DNA of 42,586 nucleotides from an uncultured Gammaproteobacteria bacterium. GTDB taxonomy: Bacteria; Patescibacteriota; Microgenomatia; UBA12405; JAHJSD01. A program made the position numbers and the translations under genes. Below the pieces are notes generated by a model that was given only the letters and a program-made list of their open reading frames with translations, was not told the DNA's origin and did no database searches. This document shows, piece by piece, positions 22,806 to 37,993 of the stretch. Every line of letters starts with the position of its first letter. The stretch's first letter is position 1. The stretch lies in NCBI GenBank assembly GCA_964432015.1, contig CAYSLZ010000002.1:1-42586 (forward strand). Reading direction: 5' to 3'.

Positions 22806-22853
22806 TAAGGCTTAGATATATAGTCGAGTAGAGAAGTGGTCCAAAACTAAAGC

Positions 22854-22925
22854 GTCCTATAATAGTATTTATAAATATCCTATAATACAATATCCTCTTC
22901 GTGAAAATTATAGGACTATTTTCAC
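22854..22925 (+). promoter_or_regulatory. Nested, mutually exclusive inverted repeats containing three TCCTATAAT boxes
   Basis: GTCCTATAAT (22854-63) is the reverse complement of ATTATAGGAC (22907-16). GTGAAAAT (22901-08) pairs with ATTTTCAC (22918-25). A third TCCTATAATA lies at 22878-87. Confidence 0.5.
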
Positions 22926-23224
22926 ATTTAGCAGTCGCAATCCTTAATTGATAATTAAATATAACTACTAAAGTTAATCCGGAGAATACGCAAAAAATAG
23001 CTACTAAATGTGGAAAAGTTCACTTGAGAAGTTAACCCCTCTTCAATCTGTTAGCTTGGTTAAATCAGCTTTTATGAGGTTCTAATCAACAACTGCCAAA
23101 ATATAAACATGGCTGATCAAACAAAAAGTGTTATTTTTGCTTCTCTCGTTGACAGCTTATTGGTGTTTATTAAGAATAAAAAGATTGATAGATAGATGTT
23201 AATTGGGGAAGCTTCGCTTACTGT

Positions 23225-23248
23225 GTCGCACAATGTTTCTTTTGCGAC
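23225..23248. promoter_or_regulatory. Inverted repeat GTCGCA-N12-TGCGAC (candidate protein or recombinase binding site)
   Basis: GTCGCAcaatgtttctttTGCGAC. The left decamer GTCGCACAAT recurs at 23745-23754. Confidence 0.4.
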
Positions 23249-23654
23249 GCGATAAATAGTAGGAGAGTGAAGAGGATTAAAAGTTTAAAGTTTCAGCTAA
23301 AGGCTGATGGGCCTCTGGCCCAAAAATTTAAATATTTATTTTGGATTATTTATTTTTGAATTTTTTGACTTCTTCTAATTTAACTTTTTCGATTTAAATT
23401 TATATTCAACCATTTCCCCACTACTCTTTGATAAAAAATATGCAATAAATAAATTTTGACTGCAGAGCTGATGACCAAAGATACTGCTATATTATTAAAA
23501 ATGCCTTAGAATGCCTCTAACGAGTTTATGCCTCTAGATTGGTAGAATATTAATATTGTTGCAATACACTACTGTTTAATTGTAATTATTTATAAAAATT
23601 ATTGCTGATTACTGTCTATATTTTTTGTGGTTTGCTAATTACAATAAAAACTTT

Positions 23655-23676
23655 AGTCCAGATTAAGTCCAGATTA
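23655..23676 (+). repeat. Tandem 11-mer AGTCCAGATTA x2
   Basis: agtccagatta agtccagatta, perfect copies, about 120 nt upstream of the recombinase start. Confidence 0.85.
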
Positions 23677-23740
23677 CCTCCAGCTAGAAAAACGGTCCGG
23701 ATAAGATGATGGCTGCAAAATTATCGTTGGTGGTTTTTTT
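23676..23740 (+). terminator. Terminator-like long hairpin followed by a T7 run
   Basis: ACCTCCAGC (23676-84) pairs with GTTGGTGGT (23726-34), 8 of 9 positions including one G-U, and is followed by TTTTTTT (23734-40). Confidence 0.3.
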
Positions 23741-23744
23741 CAAC

Positions 23745-23754
23745 GTCGCACAAT
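23745..23754 (+). repeat. Second copy of GTCGCACAAT, abutting a TTGACA hexamer upstream of the recombinase gene
   Basis: caacGTCGCACAATtTTGACA, with TTGACA at 23756-61 and the ATG at 23794. Confidence 0.5.
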
Positions 23755-23793
23755 TTTGACAGAAATAAAAAGATGTGCTAGTTTTAAATTAGA

Positions 23794-24771
23794 ATGGTTA
23801 AATCAAAAAATAAAAAACAAAACAAACTCAGTAAAAATCTTTGGACAATGGTTGATAAGTTTTTAGAAGCTTTGGAAATTGAACGCAACTGTTCTCCATT
23901 AACTATTCGGAATTATCGTCATTATTTAAAAAGGTTTAATAGGTTTTTAAAAAACGATGATAAAGACTACTCCCCTACTCTATCCGATCTTACCCTGGAA
24001 AATATACGGAAATTCCGACTTCATTTAGCCAGAATTAAAACTCGCAAGGGAACTTTTTTAAAAAAGAAAACCCAGGGTTACCACATAATTGCTTTGCGGT
24101 CATTTTTAAGCTGGTTGATTAAAGATAATTATAATGTGGTTGCACCTGATAAGATTGATTTGCCCAAAACACCAGAAAGACAGGTAAAATTTTTAAATGA
24201 GAAACAGCTAAATAAATTTTTAAATCAGCCTCAAATTTCAACTAAAATTGGTTTAAGAGATAAAGCTATTTTGGAAACTTTGTTTTCAACTGGTTTAAGA
24301 GTTAGTGAATTAGTAAGTTTAGATCGGAATGAGATTAATCTAAAAACTCAAGAGGTTGGTGTGGTTGGTAAAGGCCAAAAAGCGCGTGTTGTTTTTCTTT
24401 CTGACCGGGCAGTAAAATGGCTTGATCGCTATTTAGTTTCCCGCGATGACCATTATGACCCGTTGTTTATAAGATATTCTGGTAAAAAAGATCCGTCTAT
24501 GGATGATGAAGAAATGCGGCTTTCAGCCCGGTCGGTTCAAAGACTAGTTGAAAAATATCGTAAAAAAGCAAAAATACCAATCAAGGTGACTCCGCATGTT
24601 TTGCGTCATTCATTTGCTACTGATCTTCTTCGTCAGGGAGCCGATCTTCGGTCTGTTCAGGAACTGCTTGGGCATAAAAACATTTCCACAACTCAAATTT
24701 ATACCCACGTTACCGACCGCCATCTCCACGAAACTCACAAAAAGTACCACTCTGGCAATAAAGAATCCTAA
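23794..24771 (+). CDS. xerC: Tyrosine recombinase, XerC/XerD family
   Basis: N-terminal SAM-like core-binding domain (FLEALEIERNCSPLTIRNYRHYL). Catalytic set GLRVSEL (R), GKGQKAR (K), HVLRHSFAT (HxxR), LGHKNISTTQIYTHV (H, Y). Confidence 0.9.
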   Translation: MVKSKNKKQNKLSKNLWTMVDKFLEALEIERNCSPLTIRNYRHYLKRFNRFLKNDDKDYSPTLSDLTLENIRKFRLHLARIKTRKGTFLKKKTQGYHIIALRSFLSWLIKDNYNVVAPDKIDLPKTPERQVKFLNEKQLNKFLNQPQISTKIGLRDKAILETLFSTGLRVSELVSLDRNEINLKTQEVGVVGKGQKARVVFLSDRAVKWLDRYLVSRDDHYDPLFIRYSGKKDPSMDDEEMRLSARSVQRLVEKYRKKAKIPIKVTPHVLRHSFATDLLRQGADLRSVQELLGHKNISTTQIYTHVTDRHLHETHKKYHSGNKES

Positions 24772-24776
24772 AACCT

Positions 24777-24812
24777 TTTTAAAGATAGTGTTACGATCGT
24801 ATTGCTATTTTG
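24777..24812 (+). repeat. Copy 1 of a 32-nt perfect direct repeat / imperfect palindrome
   Basis: TTTTAAAGATAGTGTTACGATCGTATTGCTAT (24777-24808), starting 5 nt after the xer stop. Stem AAAGATAG/CTATTTTG includes one G-U. Central ACGATCGT palindrome. Confidence 0.9.
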
Positions 24813-24845
24813 ACAATTGAATATATTTTGGTGTAGAAATAGTTA

Positions 24846-25518
24846 ATGAGGAAGAAGAGATCAAAGACACTACAAATACTTGCTGCGGCTGAAGATCTTA
24901 TGCTTAATTTTGGAGACTATTTTAGCCGAGATAGGAGAAAAGGAACTGACTTAGCTGAGTGGTTAAGTATTGGCACGCGGGCGACCACATATTATTTTGT
25001 CAAAAAGGGTGTATTAAACCCGGATTTGACATTTAAGGAAAAACCAAATTCGATTTTAAGATTAATAAAAAAACCATGGGATGGTAAATGGAGATTTGTT
25101 ATTTTTGATATTCCTCAGAAAGAGGTTAATTTCAGAAATATTATTAGACGACGCTTGAAAGAATTGGACTTTAGGCAGTTGCAGCGTTCTGTTTGGTTTT
25201 CACCCTTACCCCTTACGCAAAGTTGTGAAAAAAATGGATAAACGAGTCGATGATTACAATTACTTGACTGTAATAGAAGGTAAGATATATCGTGATGATC
25301 CAAAAAGGATTGTTAGAAATAAATGGGAAATTGATGATTGGAGGCAACGTGTACTAAACTGGAAGAATTTAATTCAAGACAAGAGAAAACTTAGTGAAAT
25401 AAACCAAAAAACCTTTTGGAATTTAGTTTTGGACCATCCAAAGGTTCCTCTGGATCTTCTTCCTAAAAATTGGCCCTTAAAAGATTTAGTGAAACAATTT
25501 GACTTGAGAAAGTTTTAA
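24846..25518 (+). pseudogene. PaaX-like regulator (wHTH + central Cas2-like domain + C-terminal domain) split by a frameshift in an A7 run
   Basis: ORF 24846-25241 ends ...WDGKWRFVIFDIPQKEVNFRNIIRRRLKELDFRQLQRSVWFSP.. (PaaX central Cas2-like signature). ORF 25225-25518 continues in the +1 frame. Removing one A from A7 (25228-25234) fuses them (..SCEKMDKRVDDY..). Confidence 0.55.
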
Positions 25519-25548
25519 AGATAGTGTTACGATCGTATTGCTATCTTT
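25513..25548 (+). repeat. Copy 2 of the 32-nt perfect direct repeat; here the stem is a perfect 8 bp
   Basis: TTTTAAAGATAGTGTTACGATCGTATTGCTAT (25513-25544) followed by CTTT. AAAGATAG/CTATCTTT pair perfectly. It overlaps the TAA stop of the PaaX-like gene. Confidence 0.9.
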
Positions 25549-25613
25549 AATAATTAAATATAATTATGGTGGGGATAAGTTCTGCCTTTACACTTTATTT
25601 ACATCTCGCTTAG

Positions 25614-28244
25614 TTAATTTCCATTATCACGGAGGCAGGTCATGGCAGAAACCTTTTCGGATTTTGTTTTGAAGCGCATTAAAATAACACCTTGAGTGGT
25701 TCTGCCTAAAACGGGAATATTTTTAAGAGGCAGTTTAATAATTTTACCTTTTAATGAAGTTAAAATTACTTTATCCGTATTTTGGTCGACAATTTGAGCT
25801 TCAGCAACTAAGCCGGTTTTTTTATTGATGTTAGCTACTTTTACGCCTACGCCGGCTCTTTTTTGAAGAGGATATTTATAGGCGTTTGTGCGTTTACCCA
25901 GTCCCCTTTCGGTAACTACCAAAAGGTGGCGGAATAATTTCCGCCGTTTATCTTCCGGAACCGGTTTCTTGTCTGGAATGGTATCGAGAGAAATAACATG
26001 GTCTCCCTTTTTAAGTTCAATTCCTTTAACTCCCTGAGCTGTTCTACCCATTGTCCTGACATCTGTTTCTTTAAAGCGGATACATTTGCCTTTTTTAGTA
26101 ATTAAGAAAGCATGTTTCCTACCATTAGTTAATTTCGCATCAACTAATTGATCATTATCCTTTAGACTTATTGCAATAATTCCGGTTTTCCTAATATTTT
26201 CAAAATCTTCAATTTTTGTTCGTTTAACTTGACCTTGGTCAGTGGCTAAAAGTATGTATTTTTCCTCCGGCGTTTTTTTGGCAGAAAGTTTAAGAAACGC
26301 CTGTACTTTTTCGCCTTGTTCAATGTTAATTAAGTTAATTATTGCTTGGCCTTTAGATTTTCTTGAACCCTCCGGTATTTCCCAAACACGTTTTTCATAA
26401 ACTTTACCTTGATCGGTAAAGAAATAGATTATGTCGTGGGTTGTACATGAAAATAAGTTTTTAATTGAATCTTCTTCTTTAGTTGTCATTCCCTGAACGC
26501 CTTTACCACCTCGTCTTTGACTTCGGTAAGTTCCGCGGCCCACCCTTTTGATATAACCAGTTTTAGTAATAGTGACAATAACTTCTTCTTTAGCAATTAA
26601 ATCCTCCTCACTTAACTCACCAACTTTTCGTTTATATATCTTGGTTTTTCTTTTGTCTCCGTATTTTTCTTTTATCTCTTTAAGCTCGTTTTTTATTTCT
26701 TTTAGCATAATTTTTGGCTTGGTGAGAAGCGTTTCTAGTTTTTCCAATGTTTCCTTAATTTCCTCATATTCGGCTTCTATTTTTTGGCGTTCCAAAGCAG
26801 CTAATCTTTTTAACTGCATATCTAAAATTGCTTGAGCCTGAATGTCAGTTAATTCAAATTTGTTCATTAAGTTGGATTTAGCTGTTTCAGTGTCTTTGGA
26901 TTTTTTAATTGTTTCAATTATTTCATCAAGATTATCAAGAGCTATTTTTAGACCTTCTAAAATGTGGGCTCTGAATTTTGCTTCTCTAAATTCATAAAGG
27001 GTTCTTCGTCTGATAATTTCATGTCGATGGCGGATGAAAAGAAGCAGAATTTGGCGTAAATTTAAGGTTTGTGGAACTCCATCAACCAAGGCAACTATGT
27101 TTGCCGGATAGTTTTTTTGAAGATAGGTGTATTTATAAAGCTTGTTAAGAATTGATTTTGGTCGAGCTGTTCGTTTTAATTCAACTACAACTCTAATTCC
27201 ATCCCGGTCGGATTCATCTCGCAAATCTGATATGCCGGTAATCTTTTCATCTTTAGCCAGTTTAGCAATTTTTGCCACTAGTTTAGCCTTGTTGACCTGA
27301 TATGGCAATTCACTGATAATAATGTTGTGTTTTCCCATATTGGCTTCTTTTATTTCTGCTTTACCGCGCATGAGAATTTTACCTTTTCCAGTAGTGTAGG
27401 TTTTATTGATTGATTCTTGGTCAAATATTTCTCCTGATGTTGGGAAATCAGGTCCTTTAATAAATTCTAAAAGATCTGTACTTGATAATTTTGATTCAAA
27501 TTCAAACTGCCAGTCAGCTAATTTTTTAACCTCTTGCATAATTACGTATTCAGCAGTCTTTTTTTTGTTTTCGGTTAGTTTTTTAAATTCAATTTTTTCC
27601 TCATTTTCCTTTTTCTTAAGCTTGCCTTCGTCAATCATGTGAATTATGGCGTTAATTACCTCGGTTAGGTTATGAGGAGGAATTTTTGTTGCCATGCCAA
27701 CAGCAATTCCGTCTCCTCCGTTGATAAGAAGGTTGGGAATTTTTGTTGGTAAAACAACCGGTTCTTTTAAAGTTCTATCAAAATTATCAGTAAAGTCTAC
27801 TGTTTCCTTGTTAATGTCTCGAAGCATTTCTTGGGCAATTTTGGCCATCTTTGCTTCGGTATAACGCATAGCAGCTGGCGGGTCACCGTCAATTGACCCG
27901 AAATTACCTTGTCCGTTAATTAAACAATAACGCATAGCAAAGTCCTGGGCCATATGAACGAGAGCTCCATAGCTTGAACTGTCACCATGAGGATGATATT
28001 TTCCTAAAACTTCTCCAACTATCTTGGCTGATTTGCTGTAGCTGGCACCGCTGGTTAAATGCATTTGGTGCATGGCGTAAAGTATTCTTCTTTGTACCGG
28101 TTTTAGACCGTCACGGACATCAGGTAAAGCTCGTGAAACAATAACACTCATTGCGTAGTCTAAGTACGCTTGTCGCATTTCGTCGGTAATTTTTACTGGT
28201 TTTATTTGATCAGCCTTTGGGGCTATTTTTGTTTTCTTTGCCAT
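25614..28244 (-). CDS. gyrA: DNA gyrase subunit A
   Basis: [29 protein letters not shown] (catalytic Tyr), GPDFPT, and C-terminal beta-pinwheel repeats. Confidence 0.95.
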
Positions 28245-28747
28245 CTTTGTTTACTTTTTTTAATTACTTGATAAGCCTCTTTTTTAGTTAACCATTCGCC
28301 GACTTTAATTTCTTTGTTAAGTTCTAATTTGGCGTAACTCTCCCAGAAATCAACAATCTCGTTTTTAGTTGCTGTGCTTAAATCTTTTAAGCTTTTAAAA
28401 TGATCCATTCTCGGGTCATTTTTGGCAGCGGCAATAATTTTAGTGTCTTTTTCACCAGTGTCATGAAGTTCTAAACCTCCAATAACACGAGACCGAATTA
28501 AACAACCGGGAATAGTTGGTGACGAAACTAAAACCATTATATCTAACGGGTCATTATCCTCTGCTAGTGTGGAGGGAATGTATCCGTATTCAGTTGGATA
28601 AAAAACCGAGCCCGGTAAAACTCGATCTAAAATAAGCTGGTTTAATTGGTGGTGAAACTCATATTTATTAGTCCCCCCTTTAGGAATTTCCACTCGACAG
28701 TAGACTGTTTTCGGTGAATTTGGTCCACAAGGTATTTTTTTATTCAT
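28223..28747 (-). CDS. ppa: Inorganic pyrophosphatase, family I
   Basis: [47 protein letters not shown] overlap with the gyrB stop and a 22-nt overlap with the gyrA start. Confidence 0.9.
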
Positions 28748-30708
28748 ATATCCAAGGTCGCCATTTTAGCGTGTGTTTGAATAAAGTGCCTTCTTGGCGG
28801 TACTTTTTTACCCATTAAAATTGAAAATGTTTCATCGGCTTTTTCAGCGTCATCAATGTTGACTAGTTTTAATATCCGGTTTTCCGGATTCATAGTTGTT
28901 TCCCATAACTGGTTCGGGTTCATTTCTCCAAGCCCTTTGTAACGTTGAATATTGATGTTTTTATAATCCTTACTGTATTTAGCGACTAGTTTGTCTTTTT
29001 CCTTTTCAGAATAAGCATATTGCTCATTCTTGCCTGCTTTTACTTTGAATAAAGGCGGTTGGGCAATATATAAATTGCCCTGTTTAATTATCTGCGGCAG
29101 ATATCTAAAGAAAAAAGTCAGCAGTAAAGTGGCAATATGGGCGCCGTCAACATCAGCGTCAGTCATAATAATAACTCGGTGGTAACGAAGTTGCTCCATA
29201 TCAATTTCCTCACCAATACCAACGCCTAAAGCGACAATCAGGTCTTTGAGCTCCGGAAATTCAACGATTCTATCCAAAGCTGCTTTTTCAGTATTTAAAA
29301 CTTTACCTCTTAAAGGTAAAATAGCTTGAAATTTGCGGTCTCTGCCTTGCTTAGCTGAACCTCCGGCAGAGTCTCCCTCAACAATAAATAACTCTGATTT
29401 TTTTGGTTCTTTAGTTTGGCAATCAGCTAGTTTTCCCGGCAAACCTAATGAGTCAAAGACACCTTTTCTTGATATAGCGTCGCGGGCTGCTTTAGCCGCT
29501 TTTCTGGCTCTGACAGTCAACATGACTTTTTCCAGTATGGCATTAGTGTCAGAAGGATGTTCCTCAAAAAAAGTTTCCAGCCCTTCCCTGGCAATTTTAG
29601 CCACTAAGGGGCGAATTTCACTGTTACCCAGTTTGCCCTTAGTTTGCCCTTCAAACTGAAGGTCTTTGGATGGCATTTTTACAGAAATTATTGCTGTTAG
29701 GCCTTCGCGGGTGTCCCGGCCGCGAATAGTACCGTTTTTAATTTTTTTCAACAAGTCATTTTTTTGAGCATATTTTTTAATTGACCTAGTTAAGGCGCTT
29801 TTAAAACCAGATTCGTGGGTTCCGCCTTCTTGTGTATTTATAACGTTAACGTAGGAAATAATGTTTGTTCTATTGCTGTCAGTGTATTGAATAGCAATTT
29901 CAACCTCTTTATCATCTTCTTGTCCATTAATATATATTGGTTGATGAAAAGTATCCTTACCTTGGTTTATTTGATCAAGCAGTGAACGGATACCGCCTTC
30001 AAAATAAAAATGATATTCTTTGTCTTTAATTTTATTATTAAAATGAAAGAATAAGCCGGAGATTAAAAAAGCTCGATCGCGGAGAGAATTTTTAATTGTT
30101 TTGGGGTTAAATTCGGTTGTTTCAGTAAAAATTTTGGGGTCAGGTGTGAAATTTACAATTGTTCCGGTTTTTCCTTTTAAAAATTCTTTTGATTCCGTAA
30201 ACTTAGTTTCTTTTATTTCCTTTACCTTTGTTTCTGGATTACCTCTTTTATATTTTTGGTAATAAATTTTATCGTCACGGTGAACTTCTACTTCCATAGA
30301 CGTGGATAAAGCATTAACTACACTTGACCCGACACCGTGCAGTCCGCCCGAAATTTTATAAGCCTCACCTTCAAATTTTCCTCCGGCATGAAGTTTGGTC
30401 ATTACAATTTCTAAAGTGGATTTTTTATATTTCGGGTGTTCATCAACGGGAATTCCCCGGCCGTCGTCAACAACAGTTACTGAACCGTTTTGGTTTAAAC
30501 TGACCCAGACGTTTTCAGCCGCTCCAGCCAAAGCTTCATCAATGGCATTATCAACAATTTCATACACACAGTGGTGCAGACCGGTTTCATTGGTTGAGCC
30601 TATATACATTGCCGGCCGTTTACGAACCGGAGCTAGTCCTTCTAGAACGACTATTTGTTCTCCGGTATATTTATCAATAGTATCCAGTTTTTTCTTCTTT
30701 TTTGCCAT
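28744..30708 (-). CDS. gyrB: DNA gyrase subunit B
   Basis: GLEPVRKRPAMYIGST, LHHCVYEIVDNAIDE, GGLHGVGSSVVNALS, EGDSAGGSAKQGRDR, PLRGKVLN and IMTDADVDGAHI. Confidence 0.95.
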   Translation of the reverse strand: MAKKKKKLDTIDKYTGEQIVVLEGLAPVRKRPAMYIGSTNETGLHHCVYEIVDNAIDEALAGAAENVWVSLNQNGSVTVVDDGRGIPVDEHPKYKKSTLEIVMTKLHAGGKFEGEAYKISGGLHGVGSSVVNALSTSMEVEVHRDDKIYYQKYKRGNPETKVKEIKETKFTESKEFLKGKTGTIVNFTPDPKIFTETTEFNPKTIKNSLRDRAFLISGLFFHFNNKIKDKEYHFYFEGGIRSLLDQINQGKDTFHQPIYINGQEDDKEVEIAIQYTDSNRTNIISYVNVINTQEGGTHESGFKSALTRSIKKYAQKNDLLKKIKNGTIRGRDTREGLTAIISVKMPSKDLQFEGQTKGKLGNSEIRPLVAKIAREGLETFFEEHPSDTNAILEKVMLTVRARKAAKAARDAISRKGVFDSLGLPGKLADCQTKEPKKSELFIVEGDSAGGSAKQGRDRKFQAILPLRGKVLNTEKAALDRIVEFPELKDLIVALGVGIGEEIDMEQLRYHRVIIMTDADVDGAHIATLLLTFFFRYLPQIIKQGNLYIAQPPLFKVKAGKNEQYAYSEKEKDKLVAKYSKDYKNINIQRYKGLGEMNPNQLWETTMNPENRILKLVNIDDAEKADETFSILMGKKVPPRRHFIQTHAKMATLDI

Positions 30709-30729
30709 TTTAATCAGCTTTTCGGGAGC

Positions 30730-30755
30730 AAAAAAAAATTCTGCTTAGCAGAATT
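30730..30755 (-). terminator. Intrinsic-terminator-like hairpin inside the gyrB leader
   Basis: Minus sense reads AAATTCTGC-TAA-GCAGAATTT followed by a T run, ending 22 nt upstream of the gyrB ATG. Confidence 0.5.
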
Positions 30756-30799
30756 TCCTGCAGTATAAAAAAGCAGGTCAGCTCATTTGCACTAAGTAC

Positions 30800-30828
30800 A
30801 TTATAGTCTATTTATATACGGTATTCAA
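30800..30828 (-). promoter_or_regulatory. Near-consensus sigma70 promoter upstream of gyrB
   Basis: Minus sense reads TTGAAT (30828-30823), a 17-nt spacer, then TATAAT (30805-30800). Confidence 0.6.
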
Positions 30829-30845
30829 GTTATTACTTTATCCGA

Positions 30846-31640
30846 TTAATCGCATATTTTAGGCGGGTTATTAAAAGCGGAGCAAAGGGCAGTGATTAGA
30901 TATTCAGAAGAAGCAATTTGATTATTTTGAAAGTAGCTGTTGTTGATTTTTACTATTATTTTACTGCCTCCTTGTTGAGAATTAATCGGCAGTTGACTGT
31001 CGTTGATAAAAATTTGCGGAGTTTGACGAATATTTTTATTTTCTAAAAATTTTATTTCATTTTCCAAAATTTCAATACTTTGAGTACTAAAACAGTCTTG
31101 TATTTGATTTGTCGGCAAATTTACCTTTTTAGCTTGTTCTTGCCAACAATGGTCAACGTTTTCTAATGAGCAGTTTTCTTCCACATTATTAACAAATTCC
31201 CACCAGTCTAGTGGATTATTGGTTAATCTCCAAGCGCAAATTTCCCGAATATTTTGATTTAGTTGTCGTTTACCTTTTGGTGAACAGTAATATTTATTGT
31301 TTTTGGCGGCAATACATTGATTTTCTGTTTTGGGGCCGTTTTTTGTAGTATAAAAATAATAATGGGGCTGCCAATTTACTTTTTGGTTAAAAAATTGGAC
31401 CGCTTTTTGTAAATTTGTTCTTAATAATTTATCTTTATTTCCAAAGCTTTCTTGAAACATTACTATGTTTGGTGTATTTGTTTGTGAGGGTTGAAAGAGG
31501 ATGTTTTTAGCTCGGGAGTTTTTAGTTTCCGGCGGGCATTGGGTTTCTAAATTTACTTTTTTACGGATGGAGCCGGCTAAAAAGGCAGATATAATCAAAA
31601 GTATAAAAACAGGCCAAGGAAGCTTTATATTTTTAGTCAT
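30846..31640 (-). CDS. Hypothetical Cys-rich exported or membrane-anchored protein
   Basis: N-terminal TM helix (PWPVFILLIISAFLAGS). Several conserved-looking Cys residues. A weak DsbA-like C-terminal pattern but no CxxC. Confidence 0.35.
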   Translation of the reverse strand: MTKNIKLPWPVFILLIISAFLAGSIRKKVNLETQCPPETKNSRAKNILFQPSQTNTPNIVMFQESFGNKDKLLRTNLQKAVQFFNQKVNWQPHYYFYTTKNGPKTENQCIAAKNNKYYCSPKGKRQLNQNIREICAWRLTNNPLDWWEFVNNVEENCSLENVDHCWQEQAKKVNLPTNQIQDCFSTQSIEILENEIKFLENKNIRQTPQIFINDSQLPINSQQGGSKIIVKINNSYFQNNQIASSEYLITALCSAFNNPPKICD

Positions 31641-31827
31641 TTTTTTCTATGTTTATTGCTGAAACAGGGCAGTTGTCAATAGTAGATTTGATTTCTTTAG
31701 TAATTTCCTCGGGCTGATTTTTTACTTGAGCTTTTCCTTTTTTATAGTCAATCGAAAAAATATTTGGGTCTAACGTGGCACACAAGCCGCAGCCAATGCA
31801 TTTTTCTTCGTCAATTTTTATTTTCAT
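31633..31827 (-). CDS. Small single-cluster ferredoxin
   Basis: 64 aa. CIGCGLC ... CP(VSAI) cluster-binding pattern. Confidence 0.75.
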   Translation of the reverse strand: MKIKIDEEKCIGCGLCATLDPNIFSIDYKKGKAQVKNQPEEITKEIKSTIDNCPVSAINIEKND

Positions 31828-32137
31828 TTTTGAGTATTAAGCGTAAATTTAAAAAAACAATGATCGACTTGCCGAGTATACCACTTGTTGAAGTCAGTAT
31901 AAATATAGTTAGGGGTAAAAGGATGATTGGTAAGAGTTGCCTGATTTCTTTTTTAGGAAAAACCCAGTCAACTTCCATAATTAAATAACCGACAACTGCC
32001 CCGGAGATTAATAAAAAATAATTCGTCCACTGAGTATCCTGCCAAATTAAAATTATTTCCCAGATGATTAAGACAACCCCACCGTAAAGTATCGTTTCCG
32101 GCAAATTCTTAATTTTCGATTTAATATTTTCAATCAC
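31811..32137 (-). CDS. Hypothetical small membrane protein
   Basis: Three hydrophobic helices. GTG start at 32137; the start is uncertain. Confidence 0.35.
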   Translation of the reverse strand: MIENIKSKIKNLPETILYGGVVLIIWEIILIWQDTQWTNYFLLISGAVVGYLIMEVDWVFPKKEIRQLLPIILLPLTIFILTSTSGILGKSIIVFLNLRLILKNENKN

Positions 32138-32183
32138 TATTCGCTGTTCGCTATTAACTATTAACTATTAACTATTAACTAGG
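32137..32183. repeat. Heptamer tandem array (6.5 units), CTATTCG CTGTTCG (CTATTAA)x4 CTAGG
   Basis: Read directly from the sequence. In minus sense the units are TTAATAG. It spans from the last codons and stop of tyrS to the GTG of the next gene. Confidence 0.9.
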
Positions 32184-33304
32184 CCTTTCATGAGCCTTAA
32201 TCCTTCTTTCGCTGTTCCTGACTGAAAATGGCTCCGAGCTGGTTTTAACTTTTCAATCAGCCAGTCGGATATTCCATTTTTTAAATCCAGCGGATGAAGA
32301 TTTCCGATTTTATAATCTTCTTTTAATTTATTTATATTTTTGTATTCTATGTTACCGCCGTGTTTTTCGGCTCTTTCAATTTTTAAGCCTTTGTCCACTT
32401 TTTCTTCGCCCCAGAAAACTAACATTTCTACCCAATTAATAATTGGATTAAATTTAATTTCTTTTGGCGGACAGTAAGCATCGTGGATTTTTTGTTTAAT
32501 TATTTTTGGTGAATCATGAATAAAAATTGCCGATTTAGGTTTAGATTTACTCATTTTTAGTTCTTCCGAAGAATCGTTCTTTGACTTTGGTCCCTCTAGG
32601 CCGGCAATTGTATTTTGATGAACGGCCACCGGTGAAATTATATTTCCCTGTTTATCTTTAAGGGGATTAATAGTTATTTTGGAGGCAACGTCACGGGCAT
32701 TGGCATGGGCCTTGCGTTGGTCAATTCCGGCATGGACCAAATTAGCTTGAAGAGTAAAAATATCGGCTACTTGCAGTGGTGGGTAAAAAAGAGTTGCCAT
32801 ATCGACGCTTTTTCCCTCTTTTTTGCCCATAATTGAAATTGACCTTAAATTTCGAGCAAGCGTGATATGTTTGCCGACTTCCATAAACGTTTCCCAGTGG
32901 ATTAGATTATCTTTGTACAAATTTTTTCCGATTACAAATTTTAAGCTGCCTTTTTTAACTTCTTTGTCAGTATTTACGTTAAAGCATTTCAGTGAGGCAA
33001 TTAGCCCTTGTTTAAAATAAGAGTTAGTTGCTTTTCTGATGTTTTCCCAGTTACCGCCAAGTTTGTTATTTAAGTAAGAATGAAAATCAGCCAATAAAAT
33101 AGTGCATTTAACGCCGGCTTCTAGAAAGTCGGCAATTTTGCCCATACTCATTAAGCCGGTTCCCAGATGAACCATACCGGAAATTTCGAAACCGATGTAG
33201 TGGTTTAACGGGGTTTTGGACTTAATTAACTTCTTTAAATCTTCTTCCGTCATTATTTCTTGGCAGTTTCTGGTGATTAAATCAATTTGCTTATTAATAT
33301 CCAT
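32168..33304 (-). CDS. tyrS: Tyrosine--tRNA ligase, archaeal/eukaryal type
   Basis: Collinear with M. jannaschii-type TyrRS as recalled: YIGFEISGMVHLGT, ILLADFHSYLN, FYPPLQVADI, KMSKSK, HDAYCPP, FNPI, LHPLDLKN. No bacterial S4-like C-terminal domain. Confidence 0.9.
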   Translation of the reverse strand: MDINKQIDLITRNCQEIMTEEDLKKLIKSKTPLNHYIGFEISGMVHLGTGLMSMGKIADFLEAGVKCTILLADFHSYLNNKLGGNWENIRKATNSYFKQGLIASLKCFNVNTDKEVKKGSLKFVIGKNLYKDNLIHWETFMEVGKHITLARNLRSISIMGKKEGKSVDMATLFYPPLQVADIFTLQANLVHAGIDQRKAHANARDVASKITINPLKDKQGNIISPVAVHQNTIAGLEGPKSKNDSSEELKMSKSKPKSAIFIHDSPKIIKQKIHDAYCPPKEIKFNPIINWVEMLVFWGEEKVDKGLKIERAEKHGGNIEYKNINKLKEDYKIGNLHPLDLKNGISDWLIEKLKPARSHFQSGTAKEGLRLMKGLVNS

Positions 33305-33343
33305 TATTTTTATTTTACCACTCCCCTACCCTATTTTAAAATG

Positions 33344-33374
33344 TCGAAAAACGCAGGGTAAACCCTGCTATTAC
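33344..33374 (-). terminator. Copy 4 of the post-stop hairpin family, with a covarying stem and a U-tract (intrinsic terminator)
   Basis: Minus sense reads GTAATAGCAGGGTTTACCCTGCGTTTTTCG. Flanks match copies 1-3, and the stem changes from GCAGACT/AGTCTGC to GCAGGGT/ACCCTGC. Confidence 0.65.
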
Positions 33375-33431
33375 AAAGGTTGGGGGTGGGGTTCGCTTTT
33401 GTACTAGTACGCTTTAGCGTGCGTATCAATC

Positions 33432-34385
33432 TTATTCGGCTTTATCTTCAATTAAGTCAGTGATAAGTTTGTTTAATCTAACGGCGGCGACGCCGACTGC
33501 CTGGTCGGCTCCACCGTAATACACGTAGAGTGTACCGTTTATGACAACTGCTCCGCAGGGATAGACCACATTATTGACCTCTCCTTCCAGTTCAAATTGC
33601 ATTCTTGGCTCAAGCAAGGGATATTTTGACCGGGCAATTACTTGAGTTGGGTTATCAAGGTCAAGGAGCATTGCCCCTACCCGATAATGCCGGTCTTTAT
33701 TGGCAATTCCGTGGTACAAAAGCAGCCAGCCGGCTTCTGTTTTTATTGGCGGGGCGGCAATACCGATTTTTCGGTCATCCCAACTGTTAGCTCCGGTTTT
33801 AAACCAAAGGCTACCTTTAATCCATTTTTTTTCTTTTTTAAACTCCAAGTCGTCAACAAAGTCTAACCAAATACCCGGATAAATGCGGTGAAAAATTCCG
33901 TATTTACCGTCCTTCATATTGGGAACAATACAAGAGTTTTTGTCATCAATTCCGGGAGGCGAGATTAATTTTGGTTTAGCCCATTTCCATCTGCGGTTTA
34001 AAAAATCATCAATTTTTATTGATGACATAGCGATTCTGGTTGGGCCGACCCCATCATAAGCTGTGTAGCAAATATAAAGTCGATCGCCAATTTGGGTTAT
34101 CCGCGGGTCTTCACAACCAGAATATGCACCTTGTTTTTTCTTTTTTTCTTCTTTAATTCTCGGAACATAAATTGGCCGTGGGTATCTCTCTGATATTGTA
34201 AATCCATCCTCACTAATCGCGTAGCCTAAAGTAGAAGTATTGTTTTTTGCTGTTGCCCGATAAAGAATATGAACTTTATTGTCCAAATATATGGCGGCTG
34301 GATTAAAGGTTAGTTTCGCCTCCCACTCGTGTTCTGGAATCGGTGTAATTATCGGGTTTCTGACGTACCTTTTTAGTCTAATCAT
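33432..34385 (-). CDS. GH130-family glycoside phosphorylase/hydrolase (DUF377-type beta-propeller)
   Basis: NPIITP..HEWEAKLTFNPAAI, VHILYRA, SGCEDPRIT, LYICYTAYDG, IGIAAPPIKT..GWLLLYHG, YYGGAD. Confidence 0.8.
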   Translation of the reverse strand: MIRLKRYVRNPIITPIPEHEWEAKLTFNPAAIYLDNKVHILYRATAKNNTSTLGYAISEDGFTISERYPRPIYVPRIKEEKKKKQGAYSGCEDPRITQIGDRLYICYTAYDGVGPTRIAMSSIKIDDFLNRRWKWAKPKLISPPGIDDKNSCIVPNMKDGKYGIFHRIYPGIWLDFVDDLEFKKEKKWIKGSLWFKTGANSWDDRKIGIAAPPIKTEAGWLLLYHGIANKDRHYRVGAMLLDLDNPTQVIARSKYPLLEPRMQFELEGEVNNVVYPCGAVVINGTLYVYYGGADQAVGVAAVRLNKLITDLIEDKAE

Positions 34386-35346
34386 TGGTTAGTTCGTTAA
34401 GTAAATCTTTTAATGAACAAGTTGCCAAACAGCAATAGGTATCGGTTCCTCCGTAGTAAATATGGAGTCTGTCATTTTCAACTAATTCCCCGCTTGGAAA
34501 AACAACTTCAGGAATAATACCTTCTCTTTCGTATTTTTTTTCAGGGATTAATAAGGGAAAATTAGAGCGGCCGATTACTTGTTTTGGCTTTTTGGGGTCT
34601 AAAAGAGCCGCCTCAATATTAAATATTCTTTTTTGTTCATTAAAATAATTATTGATGTAGGAATAAATTAACAGCCATCCTTTATTAGTTTTGATTGGTG
34701 GGGCTCCAACCTCCACGTGGTCCTGAGGTCTTCTGATTAAACGCAAGGTATGGGTTTCTAGTTCATCCAGCCAATTATCCCAATAATCTTTGTTCCAAAT
34801 ATCACTGATTTGTTTAAATTCCGCCGTTGCAACATTTACCGGGGGTTGATCAGTTTGGGCGCTTAAGATAGCAAATATTTTGCCGTTTATTTTTTCCGGG
34901 AATAAAGCCATTGCTTTAGCATTAAAAGGAGTAACTAACCGTTTATCAGTGATTTTTTTTAGGTCAGGTGATATTGCTAAACCAACTTTAATAGTGTAGC
35001 GATTAGGGGGATGATCTGATATGGCGGTGTAAAAAATGTAGTAGTTGTTATTAAAATAAGTTACTCTTGGATCTTCACAACCGAACTTTTCCCATTCTTG
35101 TTCCGGTTTAATAAATTGACGCCGGTGGTTGAGTTTAGTTCCACATTGACCAGAAGCGATTCCAATAGTCGATAATTCAACTGTTTTGCCCTGATATTCT
35201 TGAGGATGAGATAAACCACGGTAGACAAGATAAATATTTTGTCCCTTTTTCACAGCACACCCGTTGTAAGCTCCTTTTGCTTCCCAATCGTGGTCGGGGT
35301 TAGGTGATAAAATCGGGTTATTTGGATGTCGGTTTACGTCAATCAT
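34378..35346 (-). CDS. GH130-family paralog 2
   Basis: NPILSP..HDWEAKGAYNG, IYLVYRG, FGCEDPRVT, YYIFYTA, VGAPPIKTNKGWLLIYS, IYYGGTD. Overlaps paralog 1 by 8 nt. Confidence 0.8.
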   Translation of the reverse strand: MIDVNRHPNNPILSPNPDHDWEAKGAYNGCAVKKGQNIYLVYRGLSHPQEYQGKTVELSTIGIASGQCGTKLNHRRQFIKPEQEWEKFGCEDPRVTYFNNNYYIFYTAISDHPPNRYTIKVGLAISPDLKKITDKRLVTPFNAKAMALFPEKINGKIFAILSAQTDQPPVNVATAEFKQISDIWNKDYWDNWLDELETHTLRLIRRPQDHVEVGAPPIKTNKGWLLIYSYINNYFNEQKRIFNIEAALLDPKKPKQVIGRSNFPLLIPEKKYEREGIIPEVVFPSGELVENDRLHIYYGGTDTYCCLATCSLKDLLNELTND

Positions 35347-35350
35347 TGTT

Positions 35351-37204
35351 TTAGTTTATCGTATTCCATTGGTTAAGGCAACGGCTGTTTTGTTTTTTAA
35401 GTGAACTGACCAGGCTTTCTATTTTTGTGTAAGCAACACAACTGACTGTATCTGCTCCTCCGTAATAAACAAGCAGTTTTTTATCTTTAACTGCTGCACC
35501 GCAAGCATAAACCACGCCGCTTTTAAAGCCTACGTTTTCATAGTCCATATCCGGCTCAAGGAGTGGATAATTAGTTCGATATTTTATTTTAGTTGGGTCA
35601 TTACTCTCTAAAATCATTGCCCCTACTTTATATCTTCCCGGGTCGTGGTTATCCATGGCGTGATAAAAAATCAGCCAGCCGTCATTTGTTTTTATTGGTG
35701 TCGGGCCGACTCCCCTCATCCAGTTGTCCCAGTGATTTTTTCTTCCAGAAGGAGAATAATAACTTTTGATTGGCCCGTTTTTGTCAAAGTTTAAATCATC
35801 AAAATAATCAACCAAAATTTTGGGCGATAAACTGTGTAAAACAGCATATTTACCGTTAATTTTGTCTGGAAATAATGCCCAATTTTTATGGATTTCTCCC
35901 TTTGGTGAGAGTCTGGTTGGTTCCGACCAGTTCCAATTTTGATTTTTAAAATCATTTACTTTTATTGAAGTAAGTGCGACCCCGGGTGGTTCGACGCCGT
36001 TCCAGGCAGTATAAGTCATGTAAATAGTATCTTTTATTTTAGTTAATTTTGGGTCCTCACAGCCGCCGCATCCCCATCCAGAGGTATAATGATAGGTTGC
36101 TTTTGGAGCTTGGCGGTTTATTTCAAATTTTTCTCTGGGAATGTAAGCGGGCTTATTTGAACGGTAGTCTATTTCAAATCCGCTTTTTGTGTTAGCGTAG
36201 CCAAAAACGGAAATATCATTTTCACCTACCGCCCGGTATATCAAGTGAATTTTATCGTCGATGTTAACAGCAGCAGGATTAAAGACTAATTTTGACTCCC
36301 ATTTATTTTCTGGTTTTGGCTCTAAAATCGGGTTTTTCTTATGCCTTTTAAGTTTTTCAAGGTAAGGAAAAGGAGATGGCCCGGTTGAATCTCTGATTTC
36401 AAAAAACGGTTGAGTTAAAGCATAGATATTTTCACTGCCGATTTGCCAATAAGAAATTAATTTATTTTTTAATTTAACCGCCCCAAGAGGGTTAATTTTT
36501 GTTTCAGTTGTGGTTGGTATAGAGGCACTGATTGGTATTTGCTTCGACCAAATAATTTGTTGAGGATTATCCTTATCAACCAGCAGTAACTGCCAGGAGT
36601 AATCTTCCCAGATATCCGGATCTTGATAACGGTAAAGAAGGATTAATATTCCTTGCTGATGATTGAAAATTTGACAAATTTTAAGATTGGTTTGGCCTAA
36701 AATCTTTTCTTTAGGTTGAAAAATTGTTTTTCTTTTTTGAGGTTGACGGGTAAGTTTTTTAAAATATCCTAAATCAATTTTTTTTCTGCCGAATATTAAT
36801 CTTTTTTCTTTTTTGGGGAAGGGAATAAGCATTCCTGCCTCATGAATAGAGTCAACTTTTTCATCTTCTGACCATTTTATTAAATCCGGTGATTGACGAT
36901 ATTTTAAATAGTATCGGTCTTTATCTTTCTCCAGAAAAGTCAGTAGATATTTATTTTTGATTCTACTAACTCGGAAATCTTTTATTTTTGGCTTTTTATT
37001 AAACCATGGCCAACGTGGTGGAAAGGAAAGTTTATCATTTATTGGTCGAAAATTTAATCCATTTTTATCAGAAAGTGCAATATTAAACGGATAATTTTTT
37101 TTTGTTGAATAAAAAAGAACAGCTTTATTTTCAAGTTTTGCCACACCTAAACCAGATAGGAAAAAACGACTGCGGCTAGTATCTTTGTTTTGAGCTGGTG
37201 TCAT
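35351..37204 (-). CDS. GH130-family paralog 3 with a ~330-aa N-terminal extension
   Basis: The C-terminal half has NPILEP..NKWESKLVFNPAAV, IHLIYRA, GGCEDPKLT, IYMTYTAWNG, VGPTPIKTNDGWLIFYHA, VYYGGAD. ATG 37204 is chosen because the track ORF's first 38 codons overlap tRNA-Tyr. Confidence 0.75.
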   Translation of the reverse strand: MTPAQNKDTSRSRFFLSGLGVAKLENKAVLFYSTKKNYPFNIALSDKNGLNFRPINDKLSFPPRWPWFNKKPKIKDFRVSRIKNKYLLTFLEKDKDRYYLKYRQSPDLIKWSEDEKVDSIHEAGMLIPFPKKEKRLIFGRKKIDLGYFKKLTRQPQKRKTIFQPKEKILGQTNLKICQIFNHQQGILILLYRYQDPDIWEDYSWQLLLVDKDNPQQIIWSKQIPISASIPTTTETKINPLGAVKLKNKLISYWQIGSENIYALTQPFFEIRDSTGPSPFPYLEKLKRHKKNPILEPKPENKWESKLVFNPAAVNIDDKIHLIYRAVGENDISVFGYANTKSGFEIDYRSNKPAYIPREKFEINRQAPKATYHYTSGWGCGGCEDPKLTKIKDTIYMTYTAWNGVEPPGVALTSIKVNDFKNQNWNWSEPTRLSPKGEIHKNWALFPDKINGKYAVLHSLSPKILVDYFDDLNFDKNGPIKSYYSPSGRKNHWDNWMRGVGPTPIKTNDGWLIFYHAMDNHDPGRYKVGAMILESNDPTKIKYRTNYPLLEPDMDYENVGFKSGVVYACGAAVKDKKLLVYYGGADTVSCVAYTKIESLVSSLKKQNSRCLNQWNTIN

Positions 37205-37257
37205 TAGATACAGATTAGCATATTTTGAATTTGATTTGCAAGGAAGAGTTTTTTTTG

Positions 37258-37972: not shown

Positions 37973-37993
37973 AGTTAAAACACACCTTAATTT

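What the first reader, a model, noticed from the sequence alone, without database searches (positions are those of the whole stretch)
24777..25548. Perfect 32-nt direct repeat (imperfect palindrome) brackets a single gene next to the tyrosine recombinase
Seen: TTTTAAAGATAGTGTTACGATCGTATTGCTAT occurs at 24777-24808 and 25513-25544, identical over 32 of 32 nt, 736 bp apart. The two copies enclose only the PaaX/Cas2-fold gene. Each copy folds as AAAGATAG-(TGTT ACGATCGT ATTG)-CTAT(C/T)TTT. Copy 2 has a perfect 8-bp outer stem. In copy 1 the C-to-T change keeps a G-U pair on the + strand RNA and also creates a TTGACA box. Both copies start at or just after a stop codon. Inference: (a) a shared terminator or processing hairpin, (b) recombination sites defining a mobile single-gene cassette served by the adjacent recombinase, or (c) operators for the PaaX-like regulator. 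The R'/R'' attC consensus is not evident, so this is not a classical integron.
Basis: partly seen in the sequence, partly recalled or inferred. Interest (0 to 1): 0.6.

Follow-up and report, generated by a model that had tools for sequence, protein, structure and literature searches.

The report
Palindromes framing a mini-PaaX gene
The two identical 32-base repeats are most likely the paired binding sites of the small DNA-binding protein encoded between them, one instance of an apparently undescribed "gene framed by its own palindromes" unit that ultra-small bacteria gain and lose as a block and whose palindromes also spread alone through the genome.

Summary
In detail: 32/32 identical copies at 24777-24808 and 25513-25544, the only two full matches in the 622-kb genome. 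They are not a one-off. Every PaaX-like ("mini-PaaX": predicted winged helix + Cas2-like + helical tail) paralog in this genome, and most in relatives, is framed by two direct copies of its own 30-40-bp GATC-centred palindrome. The upstream copy carries the -35 box of the gene's promoter in its outer arm. Symmetry is strongest at the dyad itself, which could not pair in a hairpin, so this is a double-stranded site for a dimer. The best reading is a self-repressing regulator with paired operators. The whole block is missing, with no palindrome left, at the same recombinase/gyrA junction in three same-genus genomes. The adjacent recombinase is not involved: dif, integron and terminator readings fail. 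Same-type palindromes also occur alone, once as an in-frame 36-nt insert in trxB, and they co-occur with the gene family across genomes, much as REP elements do with RAYT. The window's gene carries a 1-nt frameshift. This scan has noted the same layout before on other DNA (about 190 notes). I found no paper describing it.

The parts
24781..24812 (.). Proposed operator O-left.
   Evidence: The arms and core are conserved in G002 while the 3-nt spacers vary. The same geometry recurs family-wide.
24810..24815 (+). -35 box TTGACA. Its first 3 nt are the last 3 nt of the upstream dyad.
   Evidence: Conserved in the left copy of G002 (CTATCTTGACA). A TTGAC-type hexamer lies at the outer end of the upstream palindrome in about 16 of 19 modules. 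The consensus scan did not list it because the -10 box lacks the final T.
24834..24840 (+). -10-like TAGAAAT, 18 nt after the -35 box and 6 nt before the ATG. This suggests a leaderless or nearly leaderless mRNA (inferred).
   Evidence: G002 and L085 have the identical TAGAAAT at the same spacing.
24846..25241 (+). Mini-PaaX gene, 5' part (131 aa): variable N-terminal region (predicted DNA-binding) and Cas2-like domain with the invariant FDIP...QRSVW motif. It stops prematurely after a +1-nt frameshift near 25215-25218.
   Evidence: (PaaX_M, E 2.2e-15).
25216..25518 (+). Mini-PaaX gene, 3' part in the +1 frame (the listed ORF is 25225-25518): end of the Cas2-like domain and the helical C-terminal domain.
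   Evidence: It is 57% identical to the G002 ortholog, which is a single 220-aa frame.
25517..25548 (.). Proposed operator O-right. It lacks the -35 and -10 boxes.
25549..25581 (+). Decayed duplicate of the promoter segment: the 3' extension of the repeat, about 75% identical to 24813-24844.
24772..25613 (+). The whole block that is present or absent relative to same-genus genomes. It lies between the recombinase stop (24771) and the gyrA stop (25614).
   Evidence: In G003, G004 and G005 the two stop codons are 2-45 nt apart and no palindrome lies between them.

Best explanation
The two repeats are the paired, double-stranded binding sites (operators) of the dimeric mini-PaaX protein encoded between them. 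The protein has a variable N-terminal DNA-reading part, a Cas2-like dimerisation domain and a helical tail. A dimer would sit on the 32-bp dyad, with the paralog-specific outer arms (positions 10-16 from the axis) read by the variable N-terminal domains and the shared CGATCG centre read by a conserved part of the protein. The upstream site overlaps the -35 box, so binding would shut off the gene's own promoter, as PaaX does at Px. The downstream site, at the stop codon, would give a second anchor for looping or a roadblock that insulates the inserted gene from the converging gyrA. Gene plus both sites form a self-contained unit that is gained and lost as a block. Copies of the same palindromes also spread alone. 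In this genome the gene is frameshifted, either recently or through an assembly error.

Shown: the repeat, the family-wide architecture, the symmetry profile, the -35 overlap, block presence/absence, the lone copies, and the PaaX-like fold.

Inferred: that this protein binds these sites, repression, and the role of the downstream copy.
For: - Only two full-length copies exist in the genome, so this is not a generic signal.
- Six of 7 paralogs in G000 have their own flanking direct-repeat palindrome, spaced 735-873 bp.
- About 15 of 25 unique modules from relatives have both palindromes and about 21 of 25 have at least the upstream one, with fixed geometry: 49-61 nt before the ATG and 8-38 nt after the stop.
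- Across 38 palindromes, half-site mismatch is 0-5% at positions 1-3 from the axis, 29-42% at positions 6-9, and mostly under 10% at positions 10-19. Positions 1-2 cannot pair in a hairpin. Mismatches show no G-U bias (30 vs 23, p = 0.41).
- Between G000 and G002 the arms and core are kept while the 3-nt spacers change.
- The -35 box TTGAC(A) lies in the outer arm of the upstream copy in about 16 of 19 modules.
- Fold and sequence point to PaaX: 3KFW at 1.8e-7 and E. coli PaaX 8A39 at 7.3e-7, TM 0.54; PaaX_M in 5 of 5 members.
- E. coli PaaX binds TGATTC(N27)GAATCA and autorepresses by blocking RNA polymerase (PMC9493321).
- The core TACGATCGTA occurs 5-10 times in same-genus genomes with the gene, once in G003 which lacks it, and about 0.2 times per genome in 104 gene-free genomes.
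Against: - No binding experiment exists.
- The N-terminal 60 residues are poorly modelled (pLDDT 41-58) and have no Pfam wHTH hit.
- A plain autoregulator does not need a second site after its stop codon.
- Lone copies lie between convergent genes and inside coding regions (trxB, GT2), not mainly at promoters.
- G005 keeps a lone palindrome of this type without the matching gene.
- The window's own gene is frameshifted, yet its two sites are 32/32 identical.
- Co-occurrence across related genomes is not independent evidence, and G003 is only 91% complete.
Confidence: 0.6

Rival explanations
1. The unit is, or recently was, a selfish mobile element. The palindromes would be its ends and the mini-PaaX protein its mobilising enzyme, using the Cas2-like domain as a nuclease and the N-terminal domain for end recognition. 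Lone palindromes would be non-autonomous copies or solo remnants, as with REP/REPIN elements and RAYT, or MITEs. This partly overlaps the main reading, since binding to the palindromes is common to both.
For: - The whole block is present or absent at three loci, with bare or solo-type empty sites.
- On the recombinase tree G002 and G005 are sisters, yet only G002 has the block, so at least two events are needed.
- A different paralog sits inverted at the same junction in genus g5.
- The left and right copies are more alike within G000 (31/32) than either is to its G002 ortholog (27-28/32).
- A 36-nt in-frame insert in trxB is 33/36 identical to the C40 palindrome and is absent from same-genus orthologs.
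- Each module type has its own lone copies.
- Distribution is patchy: 9 of 12 genomes in family f1 against 0 of 104 in f4.
- The invariant Asp aligns with the beta1 Asp of Cas2 nucleases, and canonical PaaX has lost it.
Against: - The paralogs within a genome are old (37-62% amino-acid identity), so there is no sign of recent transposition.
- No target-site duplication is visible.
- No known transposase or recombinase domain is present.
- The Cas2 Asp may be structural.
- Symmetry at dyad positions 1-2 argues against hairpin-type ends of the IS200/IS605 or REP kind.
- No hits on phages, and only one weak partial hit (23% of the query, 35% identity) on a Streptomyces plasmid.
Confidence: 0.22
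2. The repeats act as RNA: a stem-loop that terminates, stabilises or processes the transcripts of the recombinase gene and the PaaX-like gene.
For: Both copies fold better than shuffles as RNA: -8.3 kcal/mol (z = -2.1) and -13.9 kcal/mol (z = -4.2). Both lie at or just after stop codons.
Against: - There is no U-tract and no terminator-like site in 24600-25750.
- Only two full copies exist in the genome, so it is not a generic terminator.
- There is no excess of G-U-compatible mismatches on the sense strand.
- The best-kept symmetry is at the loop tip, where pairing is impossible.
- The upstream copy lies upstream of its gene's own promoter.
Confidence: 0.06
3. The repeats are recombination sites (dif-like, attC-like or att sites) used by the adjacent XerC/D-type tyrosine recombinase to insert or excise a one-gene cassette.
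For: A tyrosine recombinase gene ends 6 nt before copy 1. The repeats are direct and bracket one gene. The copies lie where gene orientation converges.
Against: - Empty sites in G003, G004, G005 and G006 keep the recombinase next to gyrA with no palindrome at all, so there is no resident attB or dif site and no single site left after excision.
- G000 has only two tyrosine recombinases, and the other modules are not next to one.
- The arms differ between modules while the centre is shared, which is the reverse of what one recombinase would need.
- GC skew does not change sign at the site.
Confidence: 0.03

Closest known systems
PaaX, the phenylacetyl-CoA-responsive repressor of E. coli and Pseudomonas (PDB 8A39; relatives 3KFW/Rv0674 and 3L09)
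   Same: Both have a three-part build with a central Cas2-like domain (PF20803) and a helical C-terminal domain. PaaX is the best full-length fold match. PaaX is a dimer that binds widely spaced inverted half-sites, TGATTC(N27)GAATCA, 39 bp in all, and represses its own promoter by blocking RNA polymerase. Here there is a 32-40-bp dyad overlapping the -35 box.
   Different: - About 220 aa against 316 aa.
- There are no paa genes nearby, and the host is a 0.6-Mb genome.
- An extra conserved CGATCG centre lies in the site.
- A second site follows the stop codon.
- A genome carries 3-9 paralogs, each with its own site.
- Lone copies of the sites are dispersed, including inside genes.
- The Cas2 beta1 Asp is retained here and lost in PaaX.
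REP/REPIN sequences with their RAYT gene (REP-associated tyrosine transposase)
   Same: A single-copy protein gene is flanked by the same short palindromes that are also dispersed through the genome. Each gene variant has its own palindrome type, and palindrome and gene co-occur across genomes.
   Different: The protein here is not an HUH/Y1 transposase. The copy number is tiny (2-5 per type, not hundreds). The sites look like duplex dyads, not single-strand hairpins. The comparison with REP/RAYT rests on my own knowledge of that system.
Rickettsia palindromic elements (RPE) and similar MITE-like palindromes that insert in frame into genes
   Same: A 36-nt (12-codon) palindrome sits in frame in a surface-loop-like variable region of trxB. 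It is absent from same-genus orthologs.
   Different: RPEs are 100-150 bp and have no known partner gene. Here the insert is a copy of the site that frames a resident regulator gene. The comparison rests on my own knowledge.
IS200/IS605-type elements (hairpin ends in direct orientation)
   Same: A small unit with similar imperfect palindromes near both ends on the same strand, and no terminal inverted repeats.
   Different: There is no TnpA or TnpB. Symmetry at the hairpin tip argues for duplex recognition. There are no near-identical copies within a genome.
Xer/dif and IMEX elements; integron attC cassettes
   Same: Direct repeats bracket a single gene next to a tyrosine recombinase.
   Different: Empty sites contain no site at all. 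Arm sequences differ between cassettes while the centre is constant. There is no IntI/attI and no R'/R'' consensus, and there is no link to a recombinase at the other modules.

Membership tests
PaaX-like regulators (Pfam PaaX_M PF20803, with PaaX N-terminal wHTH and PaaX_C) | Central Cas2-like PaaX_M domain | tested here: met
   PF20803 at E 2.2e-15 for the window ORF. It matches 5 of 5 aligned members, best E 5.5e-23.
PaaX-like regulators (Pfam PaaX_M PF20803, with PaaX N-terminal wHTH and PaaX_C) | Overall fold like solved PaaX proteins | tested here: met
   Foldseek gives 3KFW at 1.8e-7 and 8A39 at 7.3e-7, TMq 0.54. The model is only moderate (pLDDT 69.7). The profile hits 3KFW at E 9.3e-6 over the middle and C-terminal domains.
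PaaX-like regulators (Pfam PaaX_M PF20803, with PaaX N-terminal wHTH and PaaX_C) | [quoted passage not shown] | tested here: inconclusive
   There is no Pfam hit for residues 1-70. The model has helices there, but pLDDT is 41-58.
PaaX-like regulators (Pfam PaaX_M PF20803, with PaaX N-terminal wHTH and PaaX_C) | Association with phenylacetate (paa) catabolic genes and an aryl-CoA effector | tested here: not met
   The neighbours are a tyrosine recombinase, gyrA, ppa and gyrB. The other modules lie among unrelated housekeeping genes. Effector binding cannot be tested here.
PaaX-like regulators (Pfam PaaX_M PF20803, with PaaX N-terminal wHTH and PaaX_C) | Wide inverted-repeat operator overlapping its own promoter | tested here: met
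   This was tested in silico only. The site is a 32-bp dyad with symmetric arms at positions 10-19 from the axis. The -35 box lies in the outer arm of the upstream copy. The PaaX operator is TGATTC(N27)GAATCA. Actual binding cannot be tested with these tools.
Cas2 (CRISPR adaptation protein) | Cas2 sequence signature with the beta1 Asp | tested here: met
   PADLOC Cas2 models hit down to E 1.9e-9. FDIP...QRSVW aligns with YDITDD...QYSVF of SSO1404 and with SSO8090. D88 is invariant in 20 sequences.
Cas2 (CRISPR adaptation protein) | Partner Cas1 and a CRISPR array | tested here: not met
   There is no Cas1 (PF01867) in G000, which is 88% complete. The repeats are 736 bp apart and enclose a gene, so they are not a CRISPR array.
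REP/RAYT systems | Gene flanked by its cognate palindromes, which are also dispersed | tested here: met
   The C2-type site has 2 flanking and 2 lone copies in G000.
REP/RAYT systems | HUH/Y1 (IS200-like) transposase | tested here: not met
   Only PaaX_M and Cas2 similarity was found.
Xer/dif and IMEX | A resident dif site that remains when the element is absent | tested here: not met
   In G003, G004 and G005 the recombinase and gyrA stop codons are 2-45 nt apart with no palindrome; G006, in another genus, also lacks a palindrome at this junction.
Integron gene cassette | attC with the R''/R' consensus, next to intI and attI | tested here: not met
The recombinase is a conserved XerC/D-like gene present in all 41 relatives searched. 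The other modules have no recombinase next to them.
Intrinsic (Rho-independent) terminator | G+C-rich stem followed by a U-tract | tested here: not met
   There are 0 terminator-like sites in 24600-25750. The stem is A+T-rich and is followed by AATAATT.

The most novel reading that the evidence does not exclude
Mini-PaaX proteins and their palindromes may be a new class of selfish DNA in ultra-small bacteria. In this reading a site-specific DNA binder with a still-active Cas2-type nuclease centre cuts or synapses its own GATC-centred palindromes. Solo palindromes would serve as landing pads: a cut solo site repaired from a gene-bearing copy would acquire the gene between two full palindromes. 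Recombination between the two copies would regenerate solos. The same activity would scatter palindromes, even in frame into housekeeping genes. This would be a REP/RAYT-like or homing-like system built on a Cas2 fold, and it would bear on where Cas2 came from.
Probability: 0.15. Interest if true: 0.85.

Novelty: new variant of a known kind. Interest (0 to 1): 0.62.

Why it matters
PaaX-like proteins are filed as regulators of aromatic catabolism. Here a shortened branch of the family (5,035 cluster representatives at E <= 1e-3) lives in genomes with no such pathway. It comes in several copies per genome, each framed by its own long palindrome.

If the main reading holds, this is a compact, portable, self-insulated regulatory unit. 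It would be a rare handle on transcription control in uncultivated Patescibacteria, with specificity pairs (protein and site) that could be read directly from sequence.

If the more novel reading holds, it is a new kind of mobile or domesticated DNA built on a Cas2 fold, relevant to the origin of the CRISPR adaptation machinery. It would also explain short palindromic inserts in housekeeping genes of these organisms.

For genome annotation, it shows that these repeats should not be called terminators, dif sites or integron cassettes.

Tried and rejected
1. **dif/XerS-like site next to its recombinase, with an IMEX-type insertion.** Rejected. The empty sites have no palindrome, GC skew does not change sign, and the other modules have no recombinase next to them.

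2. **A 7-nt tandem duplication (CCCTTAC, 25203-25216) as the cause of the frameshift.** Rejected. SPLPL is conserved in the G002 ortholog (SPLPLGKVVKK), so the shift is one extra base near 25215-25218.

3. **A decayed, inverted second module in the ORF-free gap 22806-23793.** Suggested by a 15-nt perfect complement and a 41-nt 71% complement. Rejected. The profile search of all six frames scores about 0, and BLASTN gives only short A+T-rich matches in mixed orientation.

4. **Sense-strand RNA hairpin.** No G-U bias and no terminator signal.

5. **CRISPR link.** No Cas1.

6. **Methylation switch at the GATC centre.** No Dam-type methyltransferase found. This is weak evidence because the genome is 88% complete.

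7. **Carriage on phages or plasmids.** No phage hit; on plasmids only one weak partial hit in a Streptomyces plasmid (23% of the query, 35% identity). These databases hold hardly any CPR elements.

8. **Read-level tests** of the frameshift, excision, circles and empty sites.

9. **Protein-site covariation statistics.** Not attempted. Gene and flanks duplicate together, so correlation would not separate binding from shared descent.

10. **Literature.** Five searches found no description of this layout.
Full report
**1. The observation**

The 32-mer TTTTAAAGATAGTGTTACGATCGTATTGCTAT occurs exactly twice in the window, at 24777-24808 and 25513-25544. No further match appears at up to 3 mismatches, and none is expected in shuffles. 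A 28-nt version with up to 3 mismatches finds only these two sites in the whole 621,762-bp, 48-contig assembly, which is 87.9% complete. The window is bases 1-42586 of contig C2.

Similarity runs on 3' of the repeat: 35 nt at 97% and about 68 nt with gaps. Each copy is a 32-bp imperfect dyad, AAAGATAG-TGT-TACGATCGTA-TTG-CTAT(C/T)TTT, at 24781-24812 and 25517-25548.

Copy 1 begins 6 nt after the stop of a XerC/D-type tyrosine recombinase (23794-24771; Phage_integrase, E 5e-44). Copy 2 overlaps the stop codon of the enclosed gene and lies 66 nt before the converging gyrA stop at 25614.

The enclosed gene has a PaaX_M (Cas2-like) domain. It is split into two ORFs (24846-25241 and 25225-25518). 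Compared with the intact 220-aa ortholog in the same-genus genome G002 (SPLPLGKVVKK), the window has one extra base near 25215-25218. All the paralogs examined are single frames.

**2. It is one member of a family of units**

The core ACGATCGT occurs 15 times in the genome. Nearly every occurrence sits inside a longer palindrome whose outer arms differ from site to site but stay self-complementary.

tblastn finds six further PaaX-like paralogs in G000. Five of them are framed by two direct copies of a paralog-specific palindrome:

| Module | Palindrome | Spacing |
|---|---|---|
| C3a | AAATAAGCTCAGCATATACTGAACTTATTT | 737 bp |
| C3b | CCCGACTCT...TACGATCGTA...AGAGTCGGG | 873 bp |
| C40 | GGCGAGAATAGTTCACGATCGTGAACTATATTTGCC | 749 bp |
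| C8 | TTTTCAACTATAGTTCYGGATCCAGAGTTATAGTTGAAAA | 735 bp |
| C1 | TTTTCATWATGCGCGATCGCGCAATGTGAAAA | 863 bp |

C4 has only the upstream site.

In loci fetched from other genomes, about 15 of 25 unique modules have both palindromes and about 21 of 25 have at least the upstream one. The upstream dyad axis lies 49-61 nt before the ATG. The downstream axis lies 8-38 nt after the stop. The window fits this pattern at 49.5 nt and 14.5 nt.

**3. Double-stranded dimer site, not a hairpin**

I pooled 38 palindromes, oriented with the gene, and scored the half-site mismatch rate by distance from the axis:

- positions 1-3: 0-5%
- positions 6-9: 29-42%
- positions 10-19: mostly below 10%

Positions 1-2 could never pair in a hairpin loop, yet they are the most symmetric. 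That is what a dimer reading duplex DNA produces.

Mismatches that would be G-U on the sense RNA (30) do not outnumber A-C mismatches (23; p = 0.41). There is no U-tract or other terminator-like signal, although the RNA would fold moderately well.

Between G000 and G002 the four copies keep the arms AAGATAG/CTATCTT and the core TACGATCGTA. All other differences fall in the 3-nt spacers, apart from the -35-creating change in the G000 left copy.

Because the centre (CGATCG, less often GGATCC or CATATG) is shared by most paralogs and the arms are paralog-specific, I infer two reading heads. A conserved part of the protein would read the centre, and the variable N-terminal region (residues about 27-70) would read the arms.

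**4. Link to the promoter**

In the window TTGACA (24810-24815) shares its first three bases with the end of the upstream dyad. It is followed after 18 nt by TAGAAAT (24834-24840), and 6 nt further on by the ATG. G002 has the same TTGACA-17-TAGAAAT-6-ATG layout.

A TTGAC-type hexamer lies at the outer end of the upstream palindrome in about 16 of 19 modules. The downstream copies in G000 and G002 lack both boxes.

A protein on the upstream dyad would therefore cover the -35 box. E. coli PaaX binds TGATTC(N27)GAATCA and represses its own Px promoter by hindering RNA polymerase (PMC9493321). The span and the logic are the same here.

**5. The protein**

- Profile and fold searches put it with PaaX-like proteins: 3KFW/Rv0674 and E. 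coli PaaX 8A39 (Foldseek 1.8e-7 and 7.3e-7, TM 0.54). Genuine Cas2 proteins match the middle domain only.
- The model is moderate (pLDDT 69.7) and poor for residues 1-60.
- The middle domain also hits Cas2 sequence models directly, down to E 1.9e-9.
- Its invariant Asp (FDIP) aligns with the beta1 Asp of the Cas2 nucleases SSO1404 and SSO8090. PaaX and Rv0674 have other residues there.
- G000 has no Cas1.
- The wider family is large: 5,035 cluster representatives at E <= 1e-3 and 1,412 at E <= 1e-10. Where sources name it at all, they call it a "PaaX" regulator.

**6. The unit comes and goes as a block, without the recombinase**

G002 has the same recombinase, palindrome, gene, palindrome, gyrA layout. 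In the same-genus genomes G003, G004 and G005 the recombinase stop and the gyrA stop are only 2-45 nt apart, with no palindrome between them; G006, from another genus of the family, also has no palindrome at this junction. Genus g5 carries a different paralog, inverted, at the same junction.

On a recombinase tree the genus is star-like except that G002 and G005 are sisters (97/95). So this locus needs at least two events (one gene only).

The C3a module is present in G002 and G005 but missing in G003 and G004. The C3b module is present in G001, G004 and G005 but missing in G003. The G003 C3b site keeps a decayed remnant, CCCTAACTCT-8 nt-AGAGTTGTCGG, against CCCGACTCT-22 nt-AGAGTCGGG in G000. 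That looks like a solo palindrome left by recombination between the two copies. The G003 C3a site holds another lone GATC palindrome, and G001 has a methyltransferase-like gene at that position.

G000 has only two tyrosine recombinases, and the other modules are not next to one. Together with the bare empty sites, this removes the dif/IMEX, att-site and integron readings.

**7. Lone palindromes**

Eight lone sites with this architecture occur in G000. Their positions are:

- two between convergent genes
- two in promoter-compatible positions
- one squeezed between co-directional genes
- one at a contig end
- two inside coding regions

Two are of the window's own type: C19:11192-11223 and C36:4851-4882. 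The C36 site is 28/32 identical to the G002 left copy and lies in a variable linker of a GT2 glycosyltransferase with no net length change.

A C40-type copy (33/36) forms a 36-nt, 12-codon in-frame insert in a variable loop of thioredoxin reductase. It is absent from the G001, G004 and G005 orthologs.

In G002, G004 and G005 each module type likewise has its own few lone copies. G005 keeps a lone copy of the window's type without the matching gene.

Across genomes, the core TACGATCGTA is found 5-10 times in same-genus genomes that have the gene family. It is found once in G003, which has no PaaX_M hit (91% complete). It occurs about 0.2 times per genome in the 104 gene-free genomes of family f1's sister family f4. 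The reversed control gives about 0.1. These genomes are related, so this is a small number of independent events.

**8. Reading**

The best-supported mechanism is a self-repressing mini-PaaX dimer with paired operators framing its own gene (confidence about 0.6). The role of the downstream site (loop, roadblock or insulator) is inferred, not shown.

A plain regulator does not account for several findings:

- block gain and loss
- left and right copies in G000 being more alike (31/32) than either is to its ortholog (27-28/32)
- solo remnants and in-frame inserts
- the retained Cas2 Asp

These keep alive a REP/RAYT-like or homing-like selfish reading, at about 0.15-0.22. That reading is compatible with the protein binding these sites.

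**9. Known or new**

Five literature searches found no description of this layout. This scan has noted it before on other DNA: about 190 notes in at least 165 genomes. I treated those notes as leads and re-tested the main claims on this genome.

I class the finding as a new variant of a known kind: a PaaX-type repressor with operators, in an unusual self-framing, dispersing form.

Noticed in passing
window 25215-25218 (gene 24846-25518): The framed mini-PaaX gene has one extra base relative to the intact G002 ortholog and all paralogs, which splits it into 131-aa and 97-aa ORFs. There are no other stops. It is either a recent pseudogene or an assembly error, yet the two palindromes are still 32/32 identical.
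   Followed up: partly
window 22806-23793: A 988-nt A+T-rich stretch (about 32% G+C) just upstream of the recombinase. It has no ORF of 50 aa or more, no Rfam family and no tRNA. It is not a decayed mini-PaaX module. Unexplained.
   Followed up: partly
window about 25550 (whole contig): Gene orientation switches sharply. Almost all genes in 1-25518 are on the + strand and all genes in 25614-42586 are on the - strand. AT skew flips sign, but GC skew only falls from about +0.25 to about 0 and never turns negative. So this may not be a replication terminus.
   Followed up: no
G000:C10:1510-1549 (L026/L037): A 36-nt palindrome, 33/36 identical to the C40 module's site, sits in frame (LANIVHDREVYSP) in a variable loop of thioredoxin reductase. 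Same-genus orthologs lack it. G002 has a different, weaker palindromic insert (14/20) in the same loop.
   Followed up: yes
G000:C40:996-1025 versus 1745-1774 (L020): The left repeat of the C40 module includes a 30-nt, 97% identical copy of the gene's own 3' coding end. The duplicated unit is therefore about 97 nt and LTR-like, which hints at an origin by tandem duplication or re-insertion.
   Followed up: no
G001:C2:21850-22500 (L120); G003:C4:7985-8012 (L117): The intergenic spot that holds the C3a module in G000, G002 and G005 holds a SAM-methyltransferase-like ORF in G001 and a different lone GATC palindrome in G003. It appears to be a hot spot for small insertions.
   Followed up: partly
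L027-L035 record titles: The public records of the closest relatives are titled 'uncultured Gammaproteobacteria bacterium' (TPA MAGs). Genome size, gene content and the one named neighbour (Candidatus Gottesmanbacteria) point instead to Patescibacteria/CPR, so the label is probably wrong.
   Followed up: no
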